Positions 2,437 to 6,461 of a DNA stretch of 11,654 nt are shown piece after piece (the stretch's first letter is position 1; each line of letters opens with the position of its first letter). Source of the stretch: a virus; the UHGV virus genome UHGV-1617644. The stretch is one strand, 5' to 3'. The notes under the pieces are model-generated. The model made no database searches. It was not told the origin of the DNA and saw nothing but the letters and a program-made list of their open reading frames with translations. The translations under genes and the position numbers were made by a program.

Positions 2437-2789
2437 TACGCCTCCGATGTAACAGTCGTTATTCCATAAAGAGTGTCGATTTCAGCGGAAAACATGACAC
2501 GTCGGGTCGTGGTATCCAGCGTCGTATTGAAAGAGAGGATTGATTTAACGCCCTGCGTTTCGAGGATGCGCTTACGGATCGCCAGGTTGTAGGTTTCCGG
2601 CTTCTGCTTACCGAGTACGGACTGGATCCACGGAGTCCCCTCGGTGGTGTCGAGAAACCATTGCCCATACCACAATTCGAATCGCGTTTTTACCGCCTGC
2701 GCCACGGCCTCCGGTGAGTTAATCAGCCAGGTGTCATCACCGCAGCCAAAGGTGTAATCGCCATCGGCGTCTTCACGTCTGTATCGCAT
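2436..2789 (-). CDS. Baseplate wedge/assembly protein (117 aa; gpW / gp25-position equivalent)
   Basis: Translationally coupled between the spike and baseplate-J genes; size typical of gpW-like proteins. Synteny only; sequence not recognised. Confidence 0.5.
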   Translation of the reverse strand: MRYRREDADGDYTFGCGDDTWLINSPEAVAQAVKTRFELWYGQWFLDTTEGTPWIQSVLGKQKPETYNLAIRKRILETQGVKSILSFNTTLDTTTRRVMFSAEIDTLYGITTVTSEA

Positions 2790-3541
2790 CAGTTTACCCC
2801 GTCGGTACTGCTTTCACCGCGCTGAACACCACCATGAGTGTGCGTATCATCGATTGGCTTGCCGTTAGCCTTCACGCTCCCCAAAAACTCAACAGCACCA
2901 GTGATTTTTGAAGCCACACCAGAAACCACAGACCCCACCATGCCCCCCATCCAGGTTAACAGGCCATGAATGGTTACTTTCTCAGAAAAATCAGCCAGGG
3001 GGGCAACCACATCAAGCCCCCCCGGAGCGACAATTTTAATTTTCCTGGTATCAGGATTAAGCTCAAAATAGGTGCTGCCGTCGTCACTACGCAACTGTGT
3101 GGCACTGGTATTAATACCGCTAATCTTCCTAGCCTGCGACTGGGGACCGACAATACAAAACGCATCCGATAAATCATGCATTCTGTCATCGACCGGCTCC
3201 TGTATCCCGCCACTCTGCCACCAGAAATCAATACAACGATCGGCAAAAACGACAAGACACTCATCCCCGGCTTTAACCGGAAAAGTCAACGTACAGCCTC
3301 CGCCGCGCGGAAATACCACTGGCACATCCACCAGCAACGGGTAATTTTTGGTAATGCGGTTACCGTCGTTATCCTTTTCAACCGAACGGATAGCTGGCTG
3401 CACAACCGCCGTCACCGCGTCGGGATCGAATGACTGAACAATGCCAGGCAAGGCGACACGGATCTGGTTCTTTGTTGTTTCCCGTTCAGATTTGAATGTT
3501 TCGGCAAGGTCGCCGCTGCGGGTCTGGTCAGATACTGCCAT
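2789..3541 (-). CDS. Baseplate central spike protein (250 aa; P2 gpV / Mu gp45-like position)
   Basis: GGAG 8 nt before ATG; first gene of the spike-wedge-J-I-fibre block; C-terminal Gly-rich region with a THTH motif that I recall resembling the His-containing apex of gpV-type spikes. Confidence 0.6.
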   Translation of the reverse strand: MAVSDQTRSGDLAETFKSERETTKNQIRVALPGIVQSFDPDAVTAVVQPAIRSVEKDNDGNRITKNYPLLVDVPVVFPRGGGCTLTFPVKAGDECLVVFADRCIDFWWQSGGIQEPVDDRMHDLSDAFCIVGPQSQARKISGINTSATQLRSDDGSTYFELNPDTRKIKIVAPGGLDVVAPLADFSEKVTIHGLLTWMGGMVGSVVSGVASKITGAVEFLGSVKANGKPIDDTHTHGGVQRGESSTDGVN

Positions 3542-3560
3542 TTAGTAGGCTCCAGAAAGC

Positions 3561-3590
3561 AAAAAACCCGCCAGATGGCGGGTTTTTATT
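3561..3590. terminator. Rho-independent hairpin terminator, bidirectional by sequence (AAAAAA-CCCGCC-AGAT-GGCGGG-TTTTTATT)
   Basis: Perfect 6-bp GC-rich stem (3567-3572 / 3577-3582), 4-nt loop, A-tract upstream and T-tract downstream. On the minus strand it reads CCCGCC-ATCT-GGCGGG-TTTTTTGCTTT, about 20 nt after the 131-aa stop. Confidence 0.65.
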
Positions 3591-3606
3591 AATAAATCAG
3601 TTAGAC

Positions 3607-4002
3607 CTAAACGGCTACATCAGTCTTCATTTGTTCCCATTGAGAAAAAATTGTTTTTACTTCCAAGATTGATTGTTGTGCCATTGCTTTATTTATGCCA
3701 CAACTACTTAAATCATAATCAGCCTCATTCCGAGCTAACCTCTGTTGCTCAAGTTTGTAAGCCATAGATTTTAGACTTCGAGGATCATAGGGTTCCAGTT
3801 TATTTTCTCCCTTATTTTTAAGATAAGAGATAAGGCTGGCATGATGATCCCGAGTATAAGCAGGAAGACTAGTTAGATTATCTTTAATTTCATGGTAGAG
3901 AGCGTAATATGCTCGTGAAATAGCATTACGATAACCAATCTCACAATCTTCAGCAAAACAACGTTCGGCCGAAGACAAAAACTCAGAACTAGTTATAGGC
4001 AT
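3607..4002 (-). CDS. Small alpha-helical protein with HEPN-like signatures (131 aa), second gene of the cassette
   Basis: ATG at 4002 lies inside the last codons of the 256-aa ORF; weak SD AAGAG. Contains RAYYALYHE (residues 30-38, an R-x6-H spacing) and LARNEADYD (residues 89-97, R-N-x3-Y where HEPN families usually have R-x4-6-H). Assignment is from recalled motif patterns, not an HMM hit. Confidence 0.7.
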   Translation of the reverse strand: MPITSSEFLSSAERCFAEDCEIGYRNAISRAYYALYHEIKDNLTSLPAYTRDHHASLISYLKNKGENKLEPYDPRSLKSMAYKLEQQRLARNEADYDLSSCGINKAMAQQSILEVKTIFSQWEQMKTDVAV

Positions 4003-4759
4003 ATTTACACTCTTTTAATCCATTTCTTTCAACGGAAAATCTTGCTATCAGGTTACAATCATCAAGCAAATCGATCGAGCAGATTTCATCAGCAAGTCGC
4101 ATATTCATTGCAACAACCCGCTCTGGAGACGCCTTAACCACCTCAACCAAATACGTTCCACCAGACGCCCCGTTAATGTCCGCGCGATATTCAGTTGACG
4201 GGAATTCAGCCATAACTCTGTGCACAGCCAAGGCAACTTGCCTATATTGCTCTGAAGAGCACCCTGAATTTTTATAAGCTTCATCCATATCGTTAATTAC
4301 CTCCTGCAAGAAGGTTTCTGCGTCATCCCTATGCTCTTCTTCGGATAACATTTTGCAATGACGCCCTAAATACTCCACGCATTTCGATAGTTTCCCTACC
4401 AAGTACGCAACGCCGCCAGCTTTGTAAGTAAACCACTTTGTAGGAAACTTATCAGCTAAAGAATATATGTAGTAATCCAGTTTTTCGAGTAGAGAAAATC
4501 GCTCGAGAAGTTTACAAAAGATCCGTGCGAAATTAACGTCAGCATGTGGAAGGATGACCTCAAGCGACTCAATCCCAAAGAGCACCTCACCCTTAGCTAT
4601 ATAAGCCAACGCTACAAGTGCTTCAGCCATAGGAGTATGATTAGAACCATACTCCGAAACCACTTCTCGGAAAGTCCACATATCAAGTGGCTCCCCACTG
4701 TTGATTACATTAATCAACTGGTCAAAACGCTCTTCGGCTTTTAGTTTTGGTCTCGCCAC
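3989..4759 (-). CDS. Hypothetical protein (256 aa from GTG at 4759; alternatively 230 aa from ATG at 4681), first gene of a two-gene cassette
   Basis: Low-GC ORF with no motif I recognise; no nucleotidyltransferase GSxxRG...DxD motif and no CxxC zinc-finger spacing. GTG at 4759 has a weak SD; the in-frame ATG at 4681 has GGGGAG 9 nt upstream. Its 3' end overlaps the next gene by 14 nt. Confidence 0.7.
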   Translation of the reverse strand: MARPKLKAEERFDQLINVINSGEPLDMWTFREVVSEYGSNHTPMAEALVALAYIAKGEVLFGIESLEVILPHADVNFARIFCKLLERFSLLEKLDYYIYSLADKFPTKWFTYKAGGVAYLVGKLSKCVEYLGRHCKMLSEEEHRDDAETFLQEVINDMDEAYKNSGCSSEQYRQVALAVHRVMAEFPSTEYRADINGASGGTYLVEVVKASPERVVAMNMRLADEICSIDLLDDCNLIARFSVERNGLKECKYAYN

Positions 4760-4789
4760 AGTTCACTCACTACTTATTTTTTGTCAGAT

Positions 4790-4817
4790 TTTATGTTCGC
4801 GTATACAGTTTAGTCAA
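4790..4817 (-). promoter_or_regulatory. Candidate sigma70-type promoter for the two-gene cassette (-35 TTGACT, 16-nt spacer, -10 CATAAA)
   Basis: Read on the minus strand in the 173-bp AT-rich intergenic region upstream of the 256-aa ORF: TTGACT (4817-4812) and CATAAA (4795-4790). The -10 matches consensus at only 4/6; judged by eye. Confidence 0.3.
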
Positions 4818-4932
4818 TCCACATCTGATCTACTTAGTAGTTTCGCACAAAATCCCCCTTAGAAAATGAATCTCTAGATTTTACTACGAGCCCATTTCCC
4901 TGAAAAATCGAGGATTTTCTACTCTAGTGCCA

Positions 4933-5394
4933 TTAGAACCCTTTTGATTTTGCAACACGAATACCACCAGCCCAACCATTAAAATCAATCACATTACTAC
5001 CGGGGACAGGATTATTTGTGTTGAAAGCATATCTAGCACCAATTTTCCATGCTTGCGGACTAACACTAGGATCCTTTGACAGTTTTATCCACTCTTTCAT
5101 ACCGTTGTAAATATATTCCTGACAAGAATCCCGGGTTCCTTTGCGGTTGGTGTATGCGTCCAAATCATTACATTGCTGGAATGTGTTCCTGATGATGTCA
5201 GCGAAATCATCTAAGGTCATTGTAAAACGTCGCCCATTCATTGAGAAAAAAGGCTTCACAGATGCGTAATGTTGCCATTCCGTAAACTTTTGCTGCTCCA
5301 TCAGGTCGGCTGCTTTAAATTCAAACTTACCTGGTTCGGCAAAAGAAGTCGTAGAAATCAGCATCGTTATTGCAACTATCACCTGTTTTTTCAC
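4933..5394 (-). CDS. Secreted/periplasmic protein of unknown function (153 aa), accessory gene
   Basis: Classic Sec signal peptide MKKQVIVAITMLISTTSFA|EP; two Cys in the mature part (possible disulfide). GTG start 2 nt after the hub TAA with GGGGAG 7 nt upstream, so translationally coupled. Gene is visibly more AT-rich than the flanking tail genes. Confidence 0.7.
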   Translation of the reverse strand: MKKQVIVAITMLISTTSFAEPGKFEFKAADLMEQQKFTEWQHYASVKPFFSMNGRRFTMTLDDFADIIRNTFQQCNDLDAYTNRKGTRDSCQEYIYNGMKEWIKLSKDPSVSPQAWKIGARYAFNTNNPVPGSNVIDFNGWAGGIRVAKSKGF

Positions 5395-5396
5395 GC

Positions 5397-6461
5397 TTAC
5401 GCTCCCCGTTGCATTGCCAACTGGCTAGGTATATCGCTAGCCCCACGCGCTTCGCACATCATATCCATGTACCACGCCTGGCCCCTTGTGTCGCCAGTGT
5501 ACATAATCCCGCGAACAATATAAACGCCATCCGTTGCGATGCTGGCAGGCTGCGATGTGGTGCCGCTTAGCGTAATATTTCCGTCCGTGTTCTGGTCGGT
5601 GATCTGCCCACCAGCCATCGCAATATCGTTGTTCGACAACGCGGTACGATAGACGGAAGCCTGATCCAGCTGAATGAGCCCGTTAACCCGGATGTTCGGA
5701 TTAATAAGAGCGCGGACGTTTACGCCGTTGCCGATGGTCTGCTGCGGCATGCCAATAAGCCCGGTAGCACTGTTGAGCACAATCGCTTCGTGAACATATT
5801 CATTAGTCGCCACCATCTGGCGCTGACCGTCCACGAATTGCCATGTTGCGCCACATTGCCCGGCTACGTTATCCATTAGATGCCGCGTCATGCCAAAGAG
5901 CACCCGCCCCCGGGGGAATACAGTAGCAGGCATTTCAGGCGTCAGGCCTTCGGTCACACCTTTGGCTTCGAAGTCTTTCATCAGCGCACGGTTCACATCA
6001 GCGACCGTGTAACCGGCAGCCAGCGTCTGTGAGGTTATACTGGTGGCAAAAGCCAGATCAGTATCTGCTGCCTGAATCAGGACGTAGGAATCAACCGGAC
6101 TGTCTTTTCCTGTGACCGAGTAGCGAATTTCACCGCTGAAAATCAGTCCGTAGTTGCGCCCATCACTCTGGCCCACGTCCGCCGCGTCAACTTCCCGCAC
6201 TGTCCCGACGTCGCTTGCCGACACCTCCGGCGCGATACCGTCGTAACCCGCAATCAGACGCACTTTCGAAAACTCCTGCCCGGTAATTCGGTTCACAGTA
6301 TCTGCCGAAAGGTTATAAATTTTGATAGTCCCTACCCGGGACGCGCTGCTGATGTTGAACCAGTCGATCGTAAAGGTGACTTTAAAATCACTTAGCTCAA
6401 TTCCCTGACCGTTCCCGTCCACAAGCTGCAGCTCGAAATGTCTCATCCAGTTCTGTGACAT
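5397..6461 (-). CDS. Baseplate hub protein (354 aa; Mu gp44 / P2 gpD-like position)
   Basis: GGAG 5 nt before ATG; position immediately before the spike module and size fit a hub protein. Synteny-based call. Confidence 0.6.
   Translation of the reverse strand: MSQNWMRHFELQLVDGNGQGIELSDFKVTFTIDWFNISSASRVGTIKIYNLSADTVNRITGQEFSKVRLIAGYDGIAPEVSASDVGTVREVDAADVGQSDGRNYGLIFSGEIRYSVTGKDSPVDSYVLIQAADTDLAFATSITSQTLAAGYTVADVNRALMKDFEAKGVTEGLTPEMPATVFPRGRVLFGMTRHLMDNVAGQCGATWQFVDGQRQMVATNEYVHEAIVLNSATGLIGMPQQTIGNGVNVRALINPNIRVNGLIQLDQASVYRTALSNNDIAMAGGQITDQNTDGNITLSGTTSQPASIATDGVYIVRGIMYTGDTRGQAWYMDMMCEARGASDIPSQLAMQRGA

What the first reader, a model, noticed from the sequence alone, without database searches (positions are those of the whole stretch)
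3607..4830. Autonomous two-gene cassette (256 aa unknown + 131 aa HEPN-like) inside the tail operon: candidate undescribed defence or toxin-antitoxin module
Two low-GC ORFs overlap by 14 nt (3989-4002), have their own upstream AT-rich region with a -35/-10 candidate, and are followed within about 20 nt by a strong hairpin terminator. That is a self-contained expression unit dropped into a structural operon. The first protein has no motif I recognise; the second has HEPN-like features. Accessory cargo in prophage structural operons is frequently anti-phage or addiction cargo, and HEPN domains are common RNase components of abortive-infection and TA systems. I cannot match the pair to a named system from memory.
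Basis: partly seen in the sequence, partly recalled or inferred. Interest (0 to 1): 0.8.

Follow-up and report, generated by a model that had tools for sequence, protein, structure and literature searches.

The report
Prophage TPR–HEPN two-gene toxin/defence cassette
A self-contained two-gene cassette sitting between two tail genes of an E. coli prophage encodes an unusual HEPN-type (probable RNase toxin) protein and an uncharacterised repeat-protein partner; the pair travels together between many phages and is most likely an unnamed, untested anti-phage or toxin-antitoxin module.

Summary
On the minus strand, gene A (3989-4759, 256 aa, GTG start) overlaps gene B (3607-4002, 131 aa) by 14 nt. 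The cassette is 36-46% GC against 50-57% in the flanks. It has a conserved sigma-70-like promoter (4817-4788) and a strong hairpin terminator (3587-3562), and it sits between the baseplate hub and spike genes of a SEN34-like E. coli prophage.

B is a real HEPN protein of the AF0298/UPF0332 (PF05168) type. It lacks the canonical His: the motif is R91-x3-D95-Y96, with invariant H54 and H37. A is a TPR-like helical array followed by a small alpha-beta-beta-alpha-beta domain. A has no invariant residues and no nucleotidyltransferase motif, so it is probably a regulator or sensor rather than an enzyme.

The overlapping A+B pair is intact in every gammaproteobacterial context I examined, including at least eight different prophage or chromosomal positions that are typical moron or defence hotspots. 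The same slot holds a YafO toxin-antitoxin pair, DUF2335, or a remote A+B homologue in other strains.

No named defence or TA system matched in PADLOC 2.0, NCBIfam or Pfam, and the proteins are absent from the DefensePredictor tables. Function is untested. My best reading is a HEPN toxin held in check by a TPR partner that replaces the usual MNT antitoxin. I class it as a new variant of a known kind.

The parts
4788..4817 (-). Sigma-70-like promoter of the cassette (TTGACT, 18-nt spacer, TAAAAT), about 30 nt upstream of the GTG start of gene A
   Evidence: It matches 10 of 12 consensus positions. Both hexamers and their spacing are conserved in the E2348/69 and Yersinia alleles although the Yersinia spacer has diverged. 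The count of such sites in the region is not above chance on its own.
3989..4759 (-). Gene A, 256 aa. N-terminal TPR-like helical repeats (about residues 8-137), a helical hairpin (144-185), and a C-terminal beta-beta-alpha-alpha-beta domain (191-243). Predicted non-enzymatic partner (antitoxin or sensor).
   Evidence: - ORF. It matches phrog_17809 at 1.3e-49 with unknown function and has no Pfam, PADLOC or NCBIfam hit.
- AlphaFold2 model: mean pLDDT 89.4.
- Foldseek gives weak matches of an approximately 80-residue stretch, which I take to be the C-terminal domain from its predicted alpha-beta-beta-alpha-beta order, to the MamM/CDF cytoplasmic domain, E about 0.3-0.5.
- No column is invariant, or even 90% conserved, over 46 homologues. 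The best-kept positions are small or hydrophobic residues plus N219.
- dN/dS is 0.08.
3607..4002 (-). Gene B, 131 aa. HEPN domain protein of the AF0298/UPF0332 (PF05168, 'HEPN-T') type with the non-canonical motif R91-N-E-A-D95-Y96 and invariant H54 and H37. Predicted RNase toxin or effector.
   Evidence: - ORF. It matches phrog_5176 at 4.3e-36. Pfam HEPN gives E 0.0023 and 18.5 bits, below the 22-bit cut-off.
- The family profile A4 hits PDB 9xbd_A at 2.5e-7 and 2hsb (AF0298) at 3.6e-4. Nine of 16 members hit Pfam HEPN, best 2e-6.
- The AlphaFold2 model is a five-helix bundle, pLDDT 83. The Foldseek top hit is 2hsb (probability 0.96, TM 0.58-0.60), followed by other HEPN structures.
- Invariant residues across divergent pairs are E21, R25, N26, R30, Y32, Y33, H37, P47, H54, L57, Y60, E70, R91, D95 and Y96.
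- dN/dS is 0.055.
3989..4002 (-). 14-nt overlap of the A stop codon and the B start codon (ATGCCTATAACTAG), suggesting translational coupling
   Evidence: Read directly from the sequence. An overlap of 10-38 nt is kept in all homologous pairs examined.
3562..3587 (-). Intrinsic terminator hairpin (11-bp stem, 4-nt loop, T-run) lying 20 nt after the B stop codon and 20 nt before the spike gene start. It is the shared right-hand boundary of the cargo slot.
   Evidence: Found by the scan. Free energy -17.4 kcal/mol, z = -5.1. The same stem and downstream sequence follow every cargo variant, with only the loop differing. Terminator-like hairpins also follow the pair in loci L006, L009, L028 and L033.

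Best explanation
The cassette is a prophage 'moron' that encodes a two-component HEPN toxin module.

Shown by the analysis:
- It is an independently transcribed unit, with its own promoter and the slot terminator, inserted between the baseplate hub and spike genes.
- B is an AF0298-type HEPN protein with a strictly conserved polar constellation: R91, D95, Y96, H54, H37, R25, N26, R30 and E21.
- A is a fast-evolving TPR-plus-small-alpha/beta-domain protein with no catalytic signature.
- The two genes are always adjacent and overlapping, A first, and they move together between unrelated phage positions.

Inferred:
- B is an RNase toxin that uses the alternative active site proposed for this HEPN subfamily, in which R comes from the R-x3-D-Y motif and a His comes from an earlier helix.
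- A occupies the place that the MNT nucleotidyltransferase antitoxin has in classical HEPN-MNT pairs. It probably neutralises B by binding rather than by AMPylation.
- In the lysogen the pair is made constitutively from its own promoter.
- A trigger frees or activates B. The trigger is most plausibly a protein of a superinfecting phage captured by the TPR array, or alternatively loss of the more labile A.
- Active B then cleaves cellular RNA and arrests growth, aborting the infection.
- During induction of the carrier prophage, Q-antiterminated late transcription would read through the terminator into the spike gene. I did not test this step.
For: - HEPN assignment.
- Subfamily variant: Anantharaman et al. 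2013 (PMC3710099, read) state that AF0298-type HEPNs lack the H of Rx4-6H (D in its place), keep the R, and have a second conserved H N-terminal to the motif that could form an alternative active site. They also report that HEPN proteins lacking the canonical motif scored as toxins in a genome-wide screen.
- A is non-enzymatic.
- Gene order matches type II and HEPN-MNT dyads, with the antitoxin gene at the 5' position and overlapping the toxin gene (rule cited from PMC3710099).
- Strict pair conservation across A identities as low as about 18-25% and B identities of 34-47%.
- Contexts in which the intact pair occurs:
  - the hub/spike slot;
  - upstream of the terminase genes;
  - a siphovirus tail module;
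  - the integrase/attachment-site edge of a P2/186-like prophage and of an Enterobacter prophage;
  - downstream of the tail-fibre genes;
  - between the Q antiterminator and the holin;
  - upstream of the tape-measure gene in a Klebsiella phage;
  - a chromosomal site in Erwinia with no phage genes in the flanks.
- The slot is a variable cargo site. In other strains it holds a YafO toxin TA pair, DUF2335, or a remote A+B homologue.
- The slot flanks occur in 307 of 5426 complete E. coli genomes, but this allele occurs in only 10.
- Cassette alleles are far more diverged (84% nt) than the flanking tail genes (93-98%), which indicates exchange by recombination.
- An antiterminator Q gene is present in the same prophage.
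- Precedents for prophage-encoded HEPN RNases activated by phage structural proteins are Tha (PMC11087260) and HepS (PMC13043305), read.
Against: - There is no experimental evidence of toxicity, RNase activity, an A-B complex or phage resistance for any member.
- The canonical catalytic His is missing. AF0298-type HEPNs have, to my knowledge, no demonstrated RNase activity, so B could be a non-catalytic binder.
- A lacks the DNA-binding domain typical of type II antitoxins and is much larger than usual antitoxins.
- Neither protein gave a significant hit to PADLOC models. B's best hit was HEPN_IX at E 0.003.
- The cassette lies in the sense orientation within the late operon, so it is probably over-expressed during the carrier phage's own lytic growth. 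This raises an autoimmunity problem that my model does not solve.
Confidence: 0.55

Rival explanations
1. The pair is a plain toxin-antitoxin addiction module. B is the toxin and A the labile antitoxin, and the pair stabilises the prophage or chromosomal island (post-segregational killing, selfish persistence) without a dedicated anti-phage role.
For: - The architecture is the same as TA dyads: two overlapping genes, putative antitoxin first.
- A YafO-family TA pair occupies the same slot in other strains.
- One member sits at a chromosomal site in Erwinia with no phage genes in the flanks.
Against: - A integrated prophage is not lost by segregation, so an addiction function has little to act on.
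- A is large, TPR-rich and evolves faster than B (A about 18-25% identity against B 34-47% between the same locus pairs). That fits a sensor better than a simple antitoxin.
- Nearly all contexts are phage moron or defence hotspots.
- Many TA systems at such sites have turned out to be defensive, so this rival overlaps with the main explanation.
Confidence: 0.2
2. B is a catalytically dead HEPN-fold adaptor. The pair then serves the phage in some other way, for example as an anti-defence factor, an RNA-binding or translation regulator, or a lysogenic-conversion function, rather than killing the host.
For: - The canonical His of Rx4-6H is absent.
- Anantharaman et al. 2013 note that several HEPN families are non-catalytic binders or regulators, such as MtlR and the aminoglycoside NTase C-terminal domains.
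- PADLOC gives only marginal hits.
Against: - Fifteen invariant residues, including a charged and His cluster (E21, R25, N26, R30, H37, H54, R91, D95, Y96), persist across pairs whose B proteins share only 34-36% identity. That looks like an active or ligand site rather than a scaffold.
- The same R...D/Y plus upstream H pattern is the one proposed as an alternative RNase site for AF0298.
- The conserved upstream overlapping partner is typical of a toxin that needs neutralising.
Confidence: 0.15
3. The roles are reversed. A is the effector (for example it sequesters an essential host or phage protein through its TPR array), and B is its regulator or chaperone.
For: - TPR arrays bind proteins.
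- B is more conserved than A, as some regulators are.
Against: - A has no invariant residue and no enzymatic motif.
- Gene order puts A where antitoxins sit.
- HEPN is the established effector domain in comparable systems.
Confidence: 0.05
4. A and B are accessory tail or baseplate assembly or structural proteins of this phage lineage.
For: The cassette lies between the hub and spike genes in the same orientation as the tail operon.
Against: - It is absent from about 97% of prophages that share the hub and spike flanks (10 of 307 genomes).
- It is replaced there by unrelated cargo, including a TA pair.
- It is found near integrases, upstream of terminase genes, between Q and the holin, and at a chromosomal site without phage genes in the flanks.
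- Its GC content differs from the tail genes and it has its own promoter and terminator.
- It has no structural PHROG category.
Confidence: 0.03

Closest known systems
HEPN-MNT (HepT/MntA, type VII) toxin-antitoxin pairs, especially the PF05168 / AF0298 (UPF0332, 'HEPN-T') branch
   Same: - B is a small stand-alone HEPN protein of this branch. It has the RAYYAMYH helix, the R-x3-D-Y motif with D in place of H, and an upstream conserved His.
- It is encoded downstream of and overlapping a partner gene.
- It keeps a conserved Tyr next to the motif, the kind of residue that MNT AMPylates in HepT systems. PDB 9xbc is the Y-to-F form of the closest solved relative, 9xbd.
   Different: - The partner is not a nucleotidyltransferase. 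It has no Pfam NTP_transf hit, no G[SG]...DxD motif and no invariant residues. It is a 256-aa TPR plus alpha/beta-domain protein instead.
- Neutralisation by AMPylation is therefore unlikely.
- The pair is restricted to Enterobacterales and Aeromonas mobile elements. Classical HEPN-MNT pairs are instead abundant in archaea and thermophiles (PMC3710099).
Prophage-encoded HEPN abortive-infection systems: Tha/Ith (S. aureus), HepS (Salmonella Gifsy-1), RAZR, AbiV
   Same: All are HEPN effectors carried as accessory cargo of temperate phages, expressed in the lysogen and kept inactive until infection. In Tha and HepS the trigger is a phage structural protein (PMC11087260, PMC13043305).
   Different: - Those systems have the canonical Rx4-6H motif and a sensor region fused to the HEPN domain in a single polypeptide. 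AbiV instead has an RNA antitoxin.
- Here the putative sensor or regulator is a separate TPR protein, and the HEPN has the His-less AF0298-type motif.
- I made no direct sequence comparison with Tha, HepS, RAZR or AbiV; this comparison rests on their published architectures. Foldseek matched B's model to the solved AbiV structure only weakly (probability 0.04).
HEPN families linked to TPR or Sel1 repeat proteins noted by comparative genomics (LA2681 family; AbiU2 with a Sel1-repeat gene)
   Same: The combination of a HEPN gene with a repeat-protein gene in one operon was recorded for other HEPN families (Table 1 of PMC3710099).
   Different: Those are different HEPN families with the canonical motif. 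None is the AF0298-type family, and none has been characterised as a pair. I made no sequence comparison to them here.
DefensePredictor DS-28 (E. coli: 163-aa HEPN family nuclease plus 252-aa hypothetical protein; experimentally protective)
   Same: It is a two-gene E. coli system made of a small HEPN protein and a partner of unknown function of about 250 aa.
   Different: - The partner is unrelated to A (BLASTP E = 1.3).
- The DS-28 HEPN has a canonical RNSVAH motif.
- The gene order is reversed.
- None of the window or E2348/69 protein accessions appears in that paper's tables, as far as they are stored.

Membership tests
HEPN superfamily, PF05168 / AF0298 (UPF0332, HEPN-T) branch (protein B) | Significant sequence-profile similarity to family members | tested here: met
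   The profile of 16 B homologues hits 9xbd_A at 2.5e-7, 9xbc_A at 1e-6 and 2hsb (AF0298) at 3.6e-4. Nine of 16 members hit Pfam HEPN, best 2e-6. The window protein alone is sub-threshold at 18.5 against 22 bits.
HEPN superfamily, PF05168 / AF0298 (UPF0332, HEPN-T) branch (protein B) | All-alpha up-down helical bundle fold | tested here: met
   The AlphaFold2 model has five helices and pLDDT 83. The Foldseek top hit is 2hsb (probability 0.96, TM 0.58-0.60), followed by HepT, a Sulfolobus HEPN, TM0613 and the sacsin HEPN domain, all with weak E-values of 0.6 or more.
HEPN superfamily (canonical RNase form) | Rx4-6H catalytic motif | tested here: not met
   The motif is R91-N-E-A-D95-Y96, and no His follows in any of 16 homologues. 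This is the deviation described for the AF0298 family, with D in place of H and a conserved His elsewhere (here H54 and H37) (PMC3710099).
HEPN superfamily | Metal-independent endoribonuclease activity and toxicity | not testable with these tools
   This needs expression and biochemical assays.
HEPN-MNT (HepT/MntA) type VII TA system | Adjacent minimal nucleotidyltransferase (MNT) antitoxin with the G[SG]x9-13 DxD motif | tested here: not met
   A has no Pfam or NCBIfam nucleotidyltransferase hit. Its GASGG stretch sits in a beta-hairpin and is not conserved in distant homologues. No column is invariant in 46 homologues.
HEPN-MNT (HepT/MntA) type VII TA system | Partner gene 5' of and coupled to the HEPN gene; conserved Tyr near the motif as the modification site | tested here: met
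   A precedes B with a 10-38 nt overlap in all pairs. Y96 is invariant. Whether it is modified cannot be tested here.
Type II toxin-antitoxin module | Toxin neutralised by direct binding of a cognate protein antitoxin that usually carries a DNA-binding domain | tested here: inconclusive
   The gene organisation fits. No HTH, RHH or AbrB domain was detected in A. Binding and neutralisation were not testable, and no complex prediction was possible.
Named anti-phage systems (PADLOC-DB 2.0.0; NCBIfam 20.0) | Significant match of the component proteins to a system's models | tested here: not met
   A has no hit. B has only HEPN_IX at E 0.003 and 15.7 bits. NCBIfam gives none. Distant homologues also give only marginal hits. 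Newer DefenseFinder or PADLOC releases and Brenes & Laub 2025 could not be checked.
TPR repeat proteins (protein A, N-terminal half) | Tandem helix-turn-helix repeats forming a superhelical array, with matches to TPR profiles | tested here: met
Phage moron (autonomous accessory transcription unit) | Own promoter and terminator, composition different from neighbours, presence or absence polymorphism between related phages | tested here: met
   Promoter. Terminator. GC content. Polymorphism. Promoter activity itself was not tested.

The most novel reading that the evidence does not exclude
The A+B pair is a new anti-phage family in which a stand-alone TPR protein directly senses a phage protein and licenses a His-less AF0298-type HEPN. 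That would be the first demonstration that this 'non-canonical' HEPN branch is an active RNase toxin. It would also show that the branch can be controlled without an MNT nucleotidyltransferase. A naturally occurring copy sits in the reference EPEC strain E2348/69, and a second, remote allele family occupies the same prophage slot.
Probability: 0.3. Interest if true: 0.7.

Novelty: new variant of a known kind. Interest (0 to 1): 0.55.

Why it matters
- **Tests an old prediction.** If the pair is a working toxin or defence module, it gives a genetically tractable E. coli example of the AF0298/UPF0332 HEPN branch. The activity of that branch has been an open prediction since 2013 (alternative His, D in place of H).
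- **Shows partner swapping.** It would show that the MNT antitoxin can be replaced by a repeat-protein partner.
- **Defines a cargo hotspot.** The site between the baseplate hub and spike of SEN34-like prophages is present in about 6% of complete E. coli genomes. Its right-hand boundary is a shared terminator, which makes it useful for mining further unknown systems.
- **Limited surprise.** HEPN-based cargo in prophages is now a familiar theme, and thousands of comparable candidates exist, so this is a solid lead rather than a surprise.

Tried and rejected
- **Nucleotidyltransferase idea for A.** The invariant GASGG in close homologues prompted it. I rejected it because the motif lies in a beta-hairpin, is lost in distant homologues, and no DxD is conserved.
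- **DefensePredictor DS-28.** Its gene sizes are similar, but the proteins are unrelated.
- **HepS, Tha, RAZR and AbiV.** All have the canonical motif and different architectures, so the cassette is not a member of any of them.
- **RNA antitoxin or regulatory RNA.** Rfam found no family in the window. The A-upstream region has no notable repeats.
- **Wider locus scans.** The search for related loci with the 46-sequence alignment failed for lack of a conserved stretch.
- **AFDB Foldseek.** The library was unavailable.
- **Literature.** Searches for the protein accessions, the PHROG ids, and the PDB codes 9xbd and 9xbc found nothing relevant. 'UPF0332' together with HEPN found nothing. The NAR 2026 domain-centric screen does not mention HEPN or TPR. 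Brenes & Laub 2025 is not held.
- **C-terminal domain of A.** Foldseek on the A model gave only weak matches to the CDF-transporter cytoplasmic domain. I treat this as a fold resemblance without functional meaning.
- **Distant HEPN relatives.** Those outside Gammaproteobacteria (L039, L041) have different partners, so they do not extend the A+B family.
Full report
**Setting.** The 11.6-kb window is the tail and baseplate module of an E. coli prophage, and every long ORF is on the minus strand. It is 100% identical to a prophage of strain PS1Thumoskin9. That prophage carries terminase, head, tail, lysis and antiterminator Q genes, with a pinE invertase gene beside its tail-fibre end. The nearest sequenced phages are Salmonella phage SEN34 and several Escherichia vB_EcoM phages. 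The finding lies between the baseplate hub gene (5397-6461; phrog_196, 3.4e-88) and the spike gene (2789-3541; Pfam spike N-terminal domain, 1.7e-44).

- Gene A is 3989-4759 (256 aa, GTG start) and gene B is 3607-4002 (131 aa). They overlap by 14 nt.
- GC falls to 0.36-0.46 across the cassette, against 0.50-0.57 in the flanks.
- A TTGACT-18-TAAAAT promoter-like site lies at 4817-4788. By count, such sites are no more frequent here than in shuffles. However, its hexamers and spacing are conserved in the E2348/69 allele and, with substitutions, in a Yersinia allele whose spacer has diverged.
- The hairpin at 3587-3562 folds at -17.4 kcal/mol with z = -5.1.
- Both genes are under strong purifying selection. 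dN/dS is 0.08 for A and 0.055 for B, at dS of about 0.84-1.04.

**Three refinements to the observation.**
- The terminator stem and everything downstream are common to all cargo variants at this site, and only the loop differs. The terminator therefore marks the right edge of a cargo slot rather than belonging to this cassette alone.
- The low-GC island also contains a 153-aa signal-peptide ORF (4933-5394) immediately after the hub gene.

**Protein B.**
- Alone, it scores just under Pfam's HEPN threshold.
- A profile of 16 homologues hits the solved 'HEPN domain-containing protein' 9xbd at 2.5e-7 and AF0298 (2hsb, UPF0332) at 3.6e-4. Nine of the 16 members hit Pfam HEPN.
- The predicted five-helix bundle has 2hsb as its best structural match.
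- The canonical Rx4-6H motif is not present. Instead R91-x3-D95-Y96 is invariant, together with H54, H37, R25, N26, R30 and E21, across pairs whose B proteins are only 34-36% identical.
- This is the deviation Anantharaman et al. (2013) described for the AF0298 family, for which they proposed an alternative RNase site using an upstream His. They also noted a conserved Tyr as the likely nucleotidylation target in MNT-linked HEPNs.
- The closest solved relative exists as a wild-type and a Tyr-to-Phe pair (9xbd and 9xbc). I found no paper describing them.

**Protein A.**
- It has no hit in Pfam, NCBIfam or PADLOC, and only an unknown-function PHROG.
- The word-indexed search of 5.8 billion proteins found 10 clusters. 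An exhaustive profile search of 1.84 billion representatives found 56, almost all 250-290 aa long.
- The AlphaFold2 model is confident (pLDDT 89). It has an N-terminal array of paired helices, a helical hairpin, and a beta-beta-alpha-alpha-beta domain.
- The C-terminal domain resembles only weakly the CDF-transporter cytoplasmic domain.
- No column is invariant across 46 homologues, and the conserved positions are structural.
- I specifically looked for an MNT-like nucleotidyltransferase signature and did not find one.

**Linkage and mobility.** In every gammaproteobacterial locus examined, an A-like gene is followed by an overlapping B-like gene. The contexts differ widely:
- the same hub/spike slot in Yersinia;
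- upstream of the terminase genes in Xenorhabdus;
- a siphovirus tail module next to an MliC gene;
- the integrase/attachment-site edge of P2/186-like Yersinia prophages and of Enterobacter prophages;
- downstream of the tail-fibre genes in an unclassified Enterobacteriaceae isolate (RIT814; the cluster also includes Cronobacter sakazakii);
- between the Q antiterminator and the holin in Serratia;
- upstream of the tape-measure gene in Klebsiella phage ST405-OXA48phi1.3, where the B gene is unannotated;
- a chromosomal site in Erwinia with no phage genes in the flanks.

Hosts are Enterobacterales and Aeromonas, and all source names are 'hypothetical', 'TPR protein', 'HEPN domain-containing' or 'UPF0332'. 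More distant HEPN relatives outside this clade have other partners.

**The slot is a cargo hotspot.**
- Its flanks occur in 307 of 5426 complete E. coli genomes, but this cassette occurs in only 10. Three are identical, and seven carry the 84% allele found in EPEC E2348/69.
- Other strains carry a YafO-toxin pair, a DUF2335 protein, or a 243-aa plus 142-aa pair at the same place.
- That 243/142-aa pair turned out to be a remote homologue of A+B (hhalign probabilities 99.2% and 98.6%). It is present in 33 genomes.
- Flanking tail genes are 93-98% identical between strains whose cassettes are 84% identical. This indicates that the cassette is exchanged independently of the backbone.

**Mechanism.**
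- What is shown: the cassette is an autonomous unit, B is a HEPN protein with a conserved polar site, A is a non-enzymatic repeat protein, and the two are strictly linked and mobile.
- What is inferred: B is an RNase toxin, and A is its neutraliser and possibly its sensor, standing where MNT stands in classical pairs. Infection or loss of A releases B, leading to growth arrest. Q-modified late transcription reads through the slot terminator during the carrier phage's own lytic cycle.
- Precedents for prophage HEPN effectors triggered by phage structural proteins are Tha and HepS. AbiV shows that HEPN toxins can have unconventional antitoxins.
- Weak points are the missing catalytic His, the lack of any experiment, the lack of a complex model, and an unresolved autoimmunity question.

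**Comparison and novelty.** The cassette works like a HEPN toxin-antitoxin or abortive-infection module.
- It is not a HEPN-MNT system, because the partner test failed.
- It is not DS-28, and it is not any PADLOC 2.0 or NCBIfam family.
- I rate it a new variant of a known kind.
- One caveat applies: a 2025 screen of E. coli prophage defences could not be read.

Noticed in passing
window 4933-5394 (-): A 153-aa low-GC ORF with a clear signal peptide (MKKQVIVAITMLISTTSFA/EP) starts 2 nt after the hub gene ends. It has no hit in Pfam, PHROGs, PADLOC or NCBIfam. A 69% nt-identical 154-aa homologue occupies the same position in prophages with other cargo. E2348/69 and Yersinia carry an unrelated 113-114-aa signal-peptide protein there instead. 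In one metagenomic siphovirus locus (L011) the gene just before the A+B pair is an MliC lysozyme inhibitor. This may be a second, exported cargo slot.
   Followed up: partly
window 3541-3607, compared with L002-L005: The slot terminator (stem AAACCCGCC/GGCGGGTTT and the following TTTTGCTTTCTGGAGCC up to the spike start codon) is identical behind four unrelated cargos. Only the 4-nt loop and the upstream sequence differ. The right-hand recombination boundary of the hotspot therefore appears to lie in the terminator itself.
   Followed up: partly
L005 1705-2864 (E. coli TUM12357 and 32 other complete genomes): The 243-aa plus 142-aa 'hypothetical' pair at the same hub/spike slot is a remote homologue of the A+B system (hhalign 99.2% and 98.6%). 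Its HEPN motif is R-V-N-S-D-Y. Two deeply diverged alleles of one system family therefore compete for the same slot.
   Followed up: yes
L033 4752-5147 (GenBank MK416008, Klebsiella phage ST405-OXA48phi1.3): The deposited annotation misses an intact 131-aa HEPN (B-type) gene that overlaps the A homologue by 17 nt. It lists two short ORFs of 43 and 71 aa instead. The A homologue is also annotated about 22 codons short.
   Followed up: yes
L041 3615-4762 (Pirellulales metagenome-assembled genome): A distant AF0298-type HEPN (153 aa) overlaps an upstream 129-aa gene with no Pfam hit and is followed by a TacA1-family antitoxin gene. This is an apparent TA cluster with yet another HEPN partner type.
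   Followed up: no
L003 1685-2675: In the YafO-cargo variant of the slot, the gene upstream of the YafO-family toxin is a 190-aa protein with no Pfam or PADLOC hit, rather than a recognisable YafN antitoxin.
   Followed up: no
L026/L027 5255-5914: In the P2/186-like Yersinia prophages a 219-aa gene of unknown function sits between the integrase and the A+B pair. It has only a marginal PADLOC NsnC hit at E 0.0025. It may be further cargo at the integrase/attachment-site hotspot.
   Followed up: no
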